64,000 bases of DNA from Chrysomallon squamiferum (Eukaryota; Animalia; Mollusca), in the NCBI GenBank assembly GCA_012295275.1, contig CM022669.1, forward strand, positions 11,718,001 through 11,782,000, written 5' to 3'. A model generated the notes under the pieces. It was not told the DNA's origin. It ran no database searches and was given only the letters and a program-made list of their open reading frames with translations. Shown piece by piece: positions 936-43,477 of this stretch (position 1 is its first letter; every line of letters begins with the position of its first letter). The position numbers and the translations under genes are program-made.

Positions 936-3900
936 TGCAAAGTTTATCAGAACACGAATTCGGGCAAGCCCCACACGTCTTGCCTATTGTGTATGGGTGA
1001 CCCAAGTCTCCAATTAATCTGAAAAATAGTTTTAAAAAATCAAAACAACAAAAAAAACAGTAGTTATTTCTTAAAATATTGTATCATGATACTTCTTTTC
1101 ATAACACTGATGATTCTTACTGGAGTAGAGACTAAATTTCACAGTGTAGATTATGATGTTGTTTTTTGACAGGATCAGATACTGTACATCTCAGAATGCA
1201 GAGTAAGATGATGATTTTTGACTGTATTAAGTACTGTAAATCTCACAGTGCTCATAATGATGATAATTGTGAATGGATTAAATACTGTAAATATTAAGGT
1301 TTTTAAGTTTCCTTTACCAACGACTTCATTTAGCAATTCCTGTCTGTGAGAGATTTCAAGTAAATTATTTATCTATTTATAATATCATTATCGGAACAGC
1401 ATTATAAAAAAATTCATACGTAAGTAAATATAAAAATTAAAGTCTTGAATATACATGTACATATGTATCTATATATTTCAACATTCTGTTATTGATTCAA
1501 TACCAGAATTTAATTTCATTTAATAATAATAATAAGAATAATAATAATAGCAGTTGTAGTAGTAGTAAATAAGTCAATACATAATAATAATAATAACAAT
1601 AATAATAATAATAATGACAAAAACAACAGTAATAAGGTAATTGATTTTCAGTGAGAAATATTTAATATAAAAATTAAAGTCTTGAATATACATGTACATA
1701 TGTCTCTATATATTTCAACATTCTGTTATTGATTCAATAGCAGAATGTAATTTCATTTAATAATAACAATAATAATAGCAATAATAATAATAAATAATAA
1801 TAATAATAGAAGTTCTAGTAGTAGTAAATAAATAAATAATAATAGTAATAATTATGACAAAAACAACAGTAATAAGGTCATTGATTTTCAGTGAGAAATA
1901 TTGATTTAATAAATTAAAATGGGTTAGTCTGTCGACTGAATTACCGAAATTAAAATCAAACTCACCCTGGTGCATAGTTGCATACAAAGGTATGCCTGAA
2001 TTCACCCTTTCTGCAAACGGCGTATCCGCAGCCAATTCTAGACGTTTCTCCAAACACAAGCTATTTTTCAAATTAACTCGACATAACTTTATACCTCATT
2101 CTCTCTGTATTACTATACACATCTTGCATATATATATATATATATATACATACATACATATATATATATATATTCAACCACATATACATACGTGCATACA
2201 TACATTCATATATATATATATATATATATATATATATATATATATATATATATATATATATATATATATATATATATATATGAATGTATGTATATGTGTA
2301 TGTATGAATCTATCAATCTTTGTGTGTATATATGTATATGTCTATATGTGTGTATGTACGAATATATGCTTCTACGTATGTATATTTTTGTGTATAGATG
2401 TAGAGATGAAATATATTTACTTGAAGGTAATCTGAAGCTCGCTTATAACCGTCGATGTCGTCACCAATGTACTGAAAGATACTCCTCTGATCATACCATT
2501 TTTTTATTGCTGATTCAAAACTGCGAGAACGATAGGCATGATTTTGTCCAATATAAACACCGGAATATTCTAAAAGGAGGAAATACATTTTAATAATGTA
2601 TAAATAATGAAAAGGTTATATATAGCAAATCGTTAACAATCTTAGGAGAACAATACTGAGAGAGAATATTCAGAAATAAAAAGAAACACGTGTTAGCAGT
2701 AATATAATATTTGAAAATTAAACTTTCATGATCCATCATCTCTTAAAATCGAGTGGTCTTCAAATTTTCATTTTTTATTTTTTTTATTTTAACATAAAGA
2801 AATAACAAATTAAAAAACAAACAGAGATACAAACAAAAAAATAAATAAATAAATAAGGAATAAGAAAAGAGCGAACCAAAACAAACAAAAACAAACACAC
2901 AAATAAATGAATATGTAAATGAATAAACAAAAAAACAACAACAAATGTCTTTACTTATTTGTCTGTTGGCTTATTTATAAACAATAAATAAACAAACACA
3001 CAAATAAGTAAAGGAATAAACATACAAACAATTAAAATAAAAAAATGTATCAATGCCTCGCCTGGAATTGACCGAGCTTCAGATTTGTCTCTTCCAAAAG
3101 TACACTGACGTGCCCATTTACCCGCCACCATGGCAAGTCTCTCATCCCACCTCTTAAACAAACAAATATATATCTATATATATATATACATACAATCTGG
3201 AAGAAATCAGCAGCTTTCCTCATCTTGGAAAGGCTTATTAAAGAAAATATACTGAAAATTAGCCATCACTTAAATCTGATATATATTATTACAAGTAATT
3301 GGTGACGGGTGAATGGTTGAGAATGAAACTCGTAACGGATTATATCAGTTTTTGCTACTAGTTAACTATGTTTCTCGCATCACCATTTTTATATTATCAA
3401 GTTTTTCTTACAAACATAGATCATGTGTGTGCTTGTGTGTTTTAAATGAAAAAGTTTAAGTAATACCCACATTAACTGAAGGATAATTATAATTTTCTCA
3501 GAACTTCCTGTTCTAAGAGTAAAATATTTGGGCATATTTTGACTTGTTAGAGTTATAAGGACCGATTCGCAATTAGATTTTTTTTTTTCTTCTTTATTTT
3601 ATTTTATTATTATTATTTTTTTTTTTGGCAATAGGACCGATTCGCAATTACATTTAGCGTATTCTTTGTATTTTGTTGTTGTTGTTTTTTTTTTTTTTTT
3701 TTTTTTTTTTTTTTTTTTTTTTTTTTTGGCAATGGGGAAACAAAAATTGTAAAAAATATAACACACATCTCCGTGTCTTCCTGTATTTATAATCTGGTAG
3801 ACTGGTGTTTTTACTCATTAACACGCATACCAGATGCCTGACATGATCTATGACAGGACGTAAATTGATTCTAAAACAGCAGAAAAGTGTCTGGATATAT

Positions 3901-42100: not shown

Positions 42101-43477
42101 TTTTTTTTTTTTATTATTATTATTATTATTATTATTATTATTATGATTATTATTATTACAAGTATAAAATTAAGGTGCACACAGATCTAGCCTTTGTGTC
42201 TTTTTTCTTTTCTTGATGAAGAATCTCTTGTATCTTACATCCATTCTCTCCTCGTTATCTTGATATAACAGCTACATTTATTTCTATTTATTTCAGTCCG
42301 TTGTCCTGATATAACAGTTATTGTTTTTTTGTTGTTGTTGTTTTTTTCCAATTTCAGTCCATTGTCCTTCTGAAATATCAAAGTTTTGTGAAAACAAAAG
42401 TTACTGCTATTTATACTACAGGCATTCTTCCGTGTGTCCAAGAGCGTGTGGGAGATGTCTGGGTATGTATTTACCTATGAAAAAAAAATAGTCAGATAAC
42501 TGAAAAACAATAATGAACACACCTCTATAGAGCCAAACAGAGTTTCAAAATTTATGTTTATAGAGATATATTTAAATAGCTATATCTGCTAAAAGCCGAT
42601 GTGTTTACGTTGAATTTGAAATTCCATTTATTCATACTTCATACTAAATTTTAAAAGTTAATATAACATTATAGCTCCTTGTAATGGGAAGCTATGCAAC
42701 ATGTCTCAGGCACTGGATGTGGATACTTGCGAGTGTAAACGCAAGTTTGTAAACACGTTTATTGTTTTAGTTTAGCGTGTAAAGATCAGTAGTATCTGTA
42801 ATTATTGAAATTATTAAATAACGAACTAAATTAAGAAAACATGAAAACCAGTTCTGACAGAGAAATAAACTTTAAAAGTTTATCATTTGTTGCAAACCTA
42901 CCAAATTTAAAATTTTGCTTAATAAATAGTTCACACCTGTCAGAAACGTGACTGAGGAAATGTCATTATTTTAAATACATTTATTTTTAAAATAAAACTT
43001 CCACTGTAAATTCAGTATCAAACTGAGCATCAGTCCATATGATTCAAAGATACTGAGATAAGTTAGCGTCGTGCATATTTGTCCGCAATTATTATGAACA
43101 TAAATAAATAAATAAATAAATAAATAAATAAATAAATAAACAAATGAAGCCTAATGTTTATATAACAACCCGATCTTACGTAACTGTCGGACATATCAAA
43201 TCTTTATGTATGTTATTTATTTTCACGTTCAGCTAAAAAAATTTAAAAAAAATTAAAAAGTTAAAAATTCAGACAGATGTGCTGAACAGCTTAATTAGTG
43301 TTATGCATTTACTGACTAAACGCTGACATCCTGCAACGGTGAAATAATTGATGTTTTCTTTGTATTTCAGTTGACTGTTCAAAACCCGAACATCCATTAT
43401 GTAACTCCTGGAGCAAAGGTTTTTGCATTTTTATATTTATTGCAAAGTTCTGTCCAAAATTGTGTGGACTTTGTTAA
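36117..43477 (+). CDS. CAP-EGF-ShKT-(half EGF)-ShKT secreted protein, paralog D (11 exons, 358 aa)
   Basis: Exons 36117-36186, 37534-37571, 37793-37963, 38924-39014, 39715-39863, 40331-40425, 41327-41409, 41835-41936, 42358-42462, 42675-42740, 43371-43477 total 1077 nt, open. The extra exon encodes HCPSEISKFCENKSYCYLYYRHSSVCPRACGRCL. Ends LDCSKPEHPLCNSWSKGFCIFIFIAKFCPKLCGLC*. Confidence 0.9.

What the first reader, a model, noticed from the sequence alone, without database searches (positions are those of the whole stretch)
936..43477. Actively evolving array of Tex31/Mr30-like CAP-EGF-ShKT secreted proteins: candidate venom or salivary toxin locus
Seen: four open, multi-exon paralogs with signal peptide, propeptide, CAP domain, hinge, EGF-like module(s) and C-terminal ShKT (C-x7-C-x7-C-x8-C-x3-C-x2-C), plus three decayed copies. 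Known, from recall: the N-terminus KR-x-x-C-x-x-KY-x-ELTP-x-HTMC, WDERLA, GQN, SRIGCG and FVCNY match Conus venom-duct Tex31/Mr30. CAP proteins are recurrent venom components, and ShK-fold domains can block K+ channels. Inference: a lineage-specific birth-and-death expansion of a gland-secreted effector family. The ORF track misses it almost entirely because the exons are short.
Basis: partly seen in the sequence, partly recalled or inferred. Interest (0 to 1): 0.8.

Follow-up and report, generated by a model that had tools for sequence, protein, structure and literature searches.

The report
Metal-site-free CAP-ShKT gene array in snail
This is a real cluster of duplicated snail genes for predicted secreted CAP-EGF-ShKT proteins that have all lost the family's metal-binding residues and are likely under diversifying selection, but the host is likely a non-predatory relative of vent snails, so venom is unlikely.

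Summary
The array is real. B, C and D are complete open 10-11-exon genes (325, 326, 358 aa); A is open but cut by the window edge after its hinge, so its EGF and ShKT are unseen. Three 5' fragments lie between them. They are molluscan type II CAP-ShK genes, one clade (100/99) among gastropod sequences; the best full-length match is a Gigantopelta aegis protein (39%).

Venom is not supported. The neighbouring gene's well-bounded exons are 82-91% identical to G. aegis, a symbiont-fed vent snail whose congener lacks discrete salivary glands. The family also occurs in limpets, abalone and bivalves. The His and Glu proposed for Tex31 catalysis are missing, and no ShKT has a Lys-Tyr pair.

Relatives keep these in 127, 126 and 130 of 131 domains. 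A site model favours positive selection (omega about 2, 42% of sites, p=0.003; 0 of 111 null runs reach it), though exons do not outpace introns.

Best reading: a secreted, metal-independent binding protein of mucus or epithelium. No RNA support was obtained.

The parts
936..6914 (-). Copy A, exons 1-7 (6914-6845, 5386-5349, 4889-4719, 3152-3062, 2569-2421, 2060-1966, 1018-936): signal, pro, CAP, hinge; continues off the window
   Evidence: open and phase-compatible; PF00188 on exon 6
8780..8979 (.). Assembly gap of 200 N between the head of A and fragment X
8980..9876 (+). Fragment X: intron-1 remnant, degenerate exon 2, exon 3 absent; any exon 1 would lie in the gap
10328..19063 (-). Copy B, 10 exons, 325 aa: signal, pro, CAP, hinge, EGF, four-Cys EGF, ShKT
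   Evidence: 80% identical to A over 229 codons
21126..22667 (+). Fragment Z: open exon 1 (21265-21334) and exon 3 (22196-22366), degenerate exon 2, nothing downstream
23748..31006 (-). Copy C, 10 exons, 326 aa, same architecture as B
32915..34530 (+). Fragment Y: upstream remnant, exon 1 absent, exon 2 (about 34472-34509) without splice donor
36117..43477 (+). Copy D, 11 exons, 358 aa, inverted: signal, pro, CAP, hinge, EGF, ShKT, four-Cys EGF, ShKT
   Evidence: exon 9 end corrected to 42740; 39% to G. aegis P0004 over 385 columns
42358..42462 (+). Internal ShKT exon of D (Cys spacing 7-5-9-3-2), not recognisable in B or C
39715..39863 (+). Exon 5 of D (homologues 2569-2421, 15022-14874, 27785-27637): carries three of the four replaced tetrad positions and 8 of the 25 top-ranked selected sites
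46041..52313 (-). Neighbouring DUF4874/DUF4832 gene (span of matches), used only to place the host

Best explanation
A tandem and inverted array of molluscan type II CAP-EGF-ShKT genes whose copies have all lost the CAP metal-binding residues and likely encode secreted, non-enzymatic binding proteins of mucus or surface epithelium in a likely non-venomous, Gigantopelta-related snail. Shown: gene structures, monophyly, loss of the His/Glu/His site, fragments. Supported by a four-sequence model: diversifying selection. Inferred: one ancestral CAP-(EGF-ShKT)2 gene lost its metal site, then duplicated. D kept both modules; the A/B/C line lost the internal ShKT exon (seen for B and C), and A and B split last. 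After signal and propeptide removal, the disulfide-rich and net basic proteins would bind lipids or anionic microbial or glycan surfaces through the variable loops around the former metal cleft and the terminal ShKT, with changing partners driving the divergence.
For: Open frames with every cysteine kept and only two in-frame length differences between homologous exons, against 0.5-2.0 indels per 100 aligned intron bases. Clade of four at 100/99 with a long stem, inside a 31-row gastropod branch at 96/92. Tetrad mapped through triflin (His60, Glu75, Glu96, His115 per PMC7150914). First His: 0 of 4 here, 127 of 131 relatives. Glu96: 0 of 4 (all Gln), 130 of 131. Second His: 0 of 4, 126 of 131. 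Both His are missing in 2 of 131 relatives. M2a beats M1a (2dlnL 11.7, p=0.003), holds under other codon frequencies and partitions (9.9-24.7), and 0 of 111 null simulations reach it. Mature B, C, D carry 9-17 more Lys/Arg than Asp/Glu, against -6 to +3 in six relatives. His-less CAPs can still bind sterol (SmVAL4, PMC4118828 passages). Oyster type II genes are mantle-specific (PMC6409789 passages). Neighbour exons are 82-91% identical to G. aegis.
Against: No expression or tissue evidence. Host placement rests on one neighbour gene with 2 candidates returned; the CAP tree does not resolve a sister group, and the AU test neither rejects nor shows a clade with Gigantopelta (p=0.16). Exons do not diverge faster than introns (A-B 0.108 vs 0.113). 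The CAP exons alone give p=0.055. The full aromatic sterol-binding motif is absent in all four, though also in 104 of 109 relatives. A motif-based recount of the tetrad in relatives was noisier: 120, 90 and 122 of 131. Ligand binding is untested.
Confidence: 0.5

Rival explanations
1. Reproductive protein: a fast-evolving sperm, seminal-fluid or egg-coat CAP protein, like vertebrate CRISPs.
For: Secreted CAP plus ShKT-like tail, tandem duplication and positive selection fit reproductive proteins equally well (established knowledge, recalled).
Against: No direct evidence either way; the one non-predator expression report read points to mantle (PMC6409789).
Confidence: 0.22
2. Relaxed constraint: after losing the metal site the copies keep only their disulfide scaffold and drift, some on the way to decay.
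For: Pairwise dN/dS 0.69-1.08; M1a fits 68% of sites as neutral; exons diverge at about the intron rate in A-B; three fragments.
Against: M1a and M8a are rejected (p=0.003, 0.0006); no stop or frameshift in four genes; TATA-like box at -45 kept in A, B, C.
Confidence: 0.15
3. Venom or salivary toxin locus: gland-secreted CAP-ShKT effectors acting on prey ion channels or haemostasis.
For: Type II CAP-ShK proteins are salivary-specific in the vampire snail Cumia, and Conus Mr30 and Tex31 belong to the same clade (PMC6409789 section 2.2). Duplication with positive selection is typical of venom genes. The tree places the four weakly (85/87, unstarred) beside Littorina, Nucella and Babylonia sequences. 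ShK-fold activity does not strictly need the dyad.
Against: Likely host near Gigantopelta; G. chessoia has no discrete salivary glands and adults feed through symbionts (PMC5333402 passages). The family is ancestral to molluscs, including non-predators. Tex31's proposed catalytic His and Glu are absent. No Lys-Tyr pair in any of four ShKT loops.
Confidence: 0.07

Closest known systems
Molluscan CAP-ShK type II proteins (Cumia CreCAP-ShK 4-7, oyster mantle genes; PMC6409789)
   Same: Signal, spacer, CAP, then mixed EGF-like and ShKT modules; duplication with module gain and loss.
   Different: All tetrad residues replaced; second EGF cut to four cysteines; net basic; likely non-predatory host.
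Gigantopelta aegis XP_041348039.1 (P0004, automatic name 'cysteine-rich venom protein Mr30-like')
   Same: Best full-length match to B, C and D (32-39%); CAP-(EGF-ShKT)2 like D; paralogs share one chromosome-size contig.
   Different: Keeps His, Glu and His; lies on a different contig (96.8 Mb) from the G. aegis match of the neighbour gene (54.6 Mb), so synteny is not shown.
Conus Tex31 and Mr30
   Same: Same type II clade according to PMC6409789.
   Different: Tex31's proposed catalytic His130 and Glu115 (PMC7150914) have no counterpart here. No row was named Conus, so no direct alignment was made.
Histidine-less CAP proteins SmVAL4 and tablysin-15 (PMC4118828)
   Same: Loss of both Zn-binding histidines, with lipid binding as the remaining activity.
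   Different: Separate lineages without EGF-ShKT tails; SmVAL4 keeps one tetrad residue, these keep none; binding here is untested.

Membership tests
CAP superfamily (PF00188) | CAP domain by profile | tested here: met
   Exon 6 of A and D pass the Pfam cut-off; exon-3 profile hits natrin, triflin, GLIPR1
CAP superfamily (PF00188) | CAP3 HNxxR and CAP4 G[EQ]N motifs | tested here: met
   Both in A-D; definitions from PMC4118828
Canonical metal-binding CAP/CRISP | Tetrad His60, Glu75, Glu96, His115 (triflin numbering) | tested here: not met
   R/G/N/N, Q, Q, D/F/D/A in A-D; Gln at Glu75 is usual in these relatives (123 of 131), the other three are not
Molluscan CAP-ShK type II | Signal peptide and N-terminal spacer before CAP | tested here: met
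   Hydrophobic exon 1 and pro exon in A-D; hydropathy only, no SignalP
Molluscan CAP-ShK type II | C-terminal mix of EGF-like and ShKT modules | tested here: met
   B, C, D; off-window for A
Molluscan CAP-ShK type II | Grouping with type II reference sequences in a CAP tree | tested here: inconclusive
   Groups with gastropod CAP-EGF-ShKT proteins at 96/92, but Cumia and Conus references were not available (supplement unreadable)
Tex31-like venom protease | His130 and Glu115 of the proposed catalytic site | tested here: not met
   Mapped by motif and spacing to His115/Glu96 of triflin; replaced in all four
ShK-type potassium-channel blocker | Six-cysteine ShKT pattern | tested here: met
   Four domains; PF01549 above cut-off for D's terminal one
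ShK-type potassium-channel blocker | Lys-Tyr dyad in the C3-C4 loop | tested here: not met
   No Lys-Tyr; 3 of 4 loops lack any basic-aromatic pair, D's terminal loop ends in Lys-Phe; the dyad's place in ShK is recalled
Venom or salivary component | Gland-specific expression and presence in secretion | not testable with these tools
   No RNA holder listed
Sterol-binding CAP | Aromatic motif at positions 1, 3, 8 of the alpha3-alpha4 loop | tested here: not met
   Positions 1 and 3 kept, 8 missing in all four; full motif in 5 of 109 relatives (definition PMC10189770)

The most novel reading that the evidence does not exclude
A chemosymbiotic vent snail has remodelled a CAP-ShKT protein into a metal-insensitive, cationic, diversifying family that screens or controls symbionts and surface microbes; dropping the histidine pair would spare it the zinc-triggered aggregation seen in GAPR-1 (PMC6900432) in metal-rich vent fluid. 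Against it: G. aegis paralogs keep the histidines.
Probability: 0.12. Interest if true: 0.7.

Novelty: new variant of a known kind. Interest (0 to 1): 0.36.

Why it matters
The family and its tandem duplication are known in molluscs. What the array adds is a clade that lost the whole CAP metal site and then diversified, which gives natural variants for asking what CAP domains do without the tetrad. It is also a caution: venom-like hallmarks (automatic 'Mr30-like' names, ShKT, duplication, positive selection) can all appear in a likely non-venomous snail.

Tried and rejected
Expression: no RNA holder listed. Three RNA contig sets added as 'same study' laid nothing on D exons 3-4 and only 33-41-base T-rich intronic bits on C exons 8-10; no host control was laid, so this is no evidence either way.

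A hydrophobic ATG frame in intron 1 of D (36988-37060) was first taken for exon 1, which made A and B look broken and C headless. It was rejected when the true exon 1, with TATA-like box and donor, was found in A-D and Z.

'Exons evolve faster than introns', suggested by BLAST blocks, was rejected by global alignment.

A and B as unmerged haplotypes: unlikely, since they differ at 11% of coding bases while run X1's closest contigs differ from C and D at about 1-2%.

Cephalopod host: the top profile hit was an Octopus vulgaris six-domain protein by summed score, but it falls on another branch.

A remnant of D's internal ShKT exon in B and C intron 8 scored no better than shuffles. Gene conversion among A-D: 40 of 49 informative sites support AB|CD, exon 4 being mixed.

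Word-seeded search with exon 3 found nothing; metagenome scan found nothing; no whole genome is held; the Atlas gave no answer; earlier findings returned none. No structure was predicted.

Full report
Observation. A motif scan, self-alignment and exon-by-exon reading give four paralogs. A lies on the minus strand at 6914-936 with seven exons and leaves the window. B (19063-10328) and C (31006-23748) have ten exons, 325 and 326 aa. D (plus, 36117-43477) has eleven exons, 358 aa. Exon phases agree throughout and no exon holds a stop. GC donors are needed at intron 4 of A, B, C and intron 9 of D. Pfam on 12 single exons gives CAP above cut-off for exon 6 of A and D and ShK above cut-off for D's last exon, below it for B and C. 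D has an extra internal ShKT exon. The second EGF module has four cysteines. Three plus-strand 5' fragments lie at about 8980-9876, 21126-22667 and 32915-34530. A 200-N gap precedes the first.

Family. A profile of exon 3 found 109 relatives; a wider profile found 87. The named ones come from vent snail, limpets, abalone, periwinkle, mud creeper, whelks, bivalves, octopus and others. The best full-length match to B, C and D is Gigantopelta aegis XP_041348039.1 at 32-39%, with D's two-module tail. PMC6409789 (passages and section 2.2) defines this as molluscan CAP-ShK type II. It is ancestral to molluscs, includes Conus Mr30 and Tex31, is salivary in Cumia and mantle-specific in oyster. In a tree of 53 named CAP segments (of 131 distinct ones held) plus A-D, the four form one clade (100/99) on a long stem inside a gastropod branch (96/92); the sister group is unresolved. 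On 34 of those 57 rows, a clade with Gigantopelta is neither found nor rejected (p-AU 0.16).

Host. An exon of the neighbouring DUF4874/DUF4832 gene returned 2 of 2 candidates; the named one is G. aegis at 90%. Four well-bounded exons match it at 82-91%, and all nine matches sum to 305 of 461 residues, some running into introns. The window's GC is about 29% against 37% for G. aegis (PMC7895826 passages), so it is another species. The RNA runs added for the same coded organism are labelled metatranscriptomic, a weak hint of a symbiont-bearing host. I infer a gastropod related to peltospirids; this rests on one gene. In G. chessoia no discrete salivary glands were found, and adults rely on symbionts (PMC5333402 passages).

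The CAP metal site is His60, Glu75, Glu96, His115 in triflin (PMC7150914 passages). The G. aegis protein aligns to triflin at these places. In A-D the first His is Arg, Gly, Asn, Asn; Glu96 is Gln in all; the second His is Asp, Phe, Asp, Ala (the register at this column was shifted by a junction X, but no His is present either way). Relatives keep them in 127, 130 and 126 of 131 segments, and 2 of 131 lack both His. A cruder motif recount gave 120, 90 and 122. Gln at Glu75 is usual in this group. Tex31's proposed catalytic His130 and Glu115 correspond, by my mapping, to the second His and Glu96, so that mechanism is closed to these proteins. His-less CAPs are known elsewhere and can bind sterol (SmVAL4, tablysin-15; PMC4118828 passages). 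The full aromatic sterol motif (PMC10189770 passages) is absent here and in most relatives. No ShKT loop has a Lys-Tyr pair. A dyad-less ShKT protein occurs in limpet mucus (PMC7333891 passages). Mature B, C and D are net basic, unlike six relatives checked.

Selection. Pairwise identity is 54-80% and dN/dS 0.69-1.08. My own codon models on 313 sites give omega 0.80 overall. M2a beats M1a (p=0.003) and M8 beats M8a (p=0.0006), with about 42% of sites at omega 2.1. The result holds for other codon frequencies, three partitions and removal of multi-hit codons, but the CAP exons alone give p=0.055. None of 111 null simulations reached the observed statistic. Eight of the 25 top sites are in exon 5 (49 of 313 sites) and five in the terminal ShKT. 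Against over-reading: there are only four sequences, and exons do not diverge faster than introns. A and B differ far more than the window differs from DNA run X1, so they are likely true paralogs.

Mechanism. Shown: structure, monophyly, tetrad loss, fragments. Modelled: diversifying selection. Inferred: secretion, propeptide removal, and work as a metal-independent binding scaffold in mucus or epithelium (0.5). Rivals are a reproductive protein (0.22), relaxed drift (0.15) and venom (0.07). No spliced read or tissue data were obtained.

Novelty. Family, architecture and tandem duplication are known. Paper searches (listings, with passages read as cited) showed no report of a tetrad-less molluscan CAP-ShK clade or of this family in vent snails; a scaly-foot snail proteome paper has no match for ShK, venom or CRISP in its main text (PMC11871041). 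The supplement of PMC6409789 could not be read and may hold His-less molluscan sequences. Verdict: new variant of a known kind, interest 0.36.

Noticed in passing
6028-6136, 18077-18185, 37049-37142, 9065-9072: A pair of TGACGTCA (CRE-type, label recalled) palindromes about 90-100 bases apart is kept in intron 1 of A, B and D, one in fragment X, and none in C. 8 matches in the window against 0.55 expected, but 7 are copies of two sites. Possibly an intronic enhancer.
   Followed up: partly
3061, 15534, 28606 (minus); 42741 (plus): GC splice donors at intron 4 of A, B, C and intron 9 of D.
   Followed up: partly
8980-9876, 21126-22667, 32915-34530: Each minus-strand gene is flanked head to head by a plus-strand 5' fragment, which suggests that an inverted pair was the duplicated unit.
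   Followed up: partly
46041-52313 (minus): Multi-exon DUF4874/DUF4832 gene; further coding-like sequence at 43911-44324 on the same strand was not assigned.
   Followed up: partly
56170-56300 (minus); 59907-64000 (plus): RPL36 exon confirmed by Pfam.
   Followed up: partly
57414-57908 (plus): A 165-codon open stretch head to head with RPL36, no Pfam match above cut-off; probably an exon of a small unnamed gene.
   Followed up: no
11060-11820: An insertion in intron 8 of B, absent from C, with inverted ends and transposase-like text by eye; likely a decayed DNA transposon.
   Followed up: no
43371-43477: D's terminal ShKT loop is more hydrophobic than any of 115 loops from relatives.
   Followed up: partly
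37856, 37916: The two differences between D exon 3 and run X1's closest contig both fall on first codon positions and change Val to Ile.
   Followed up: no
P0001: An Octopus vulgaris gene model with six CAP domains in 1934 aa, possibly a fused annotation of a similar tandem array.
   Followed up: no
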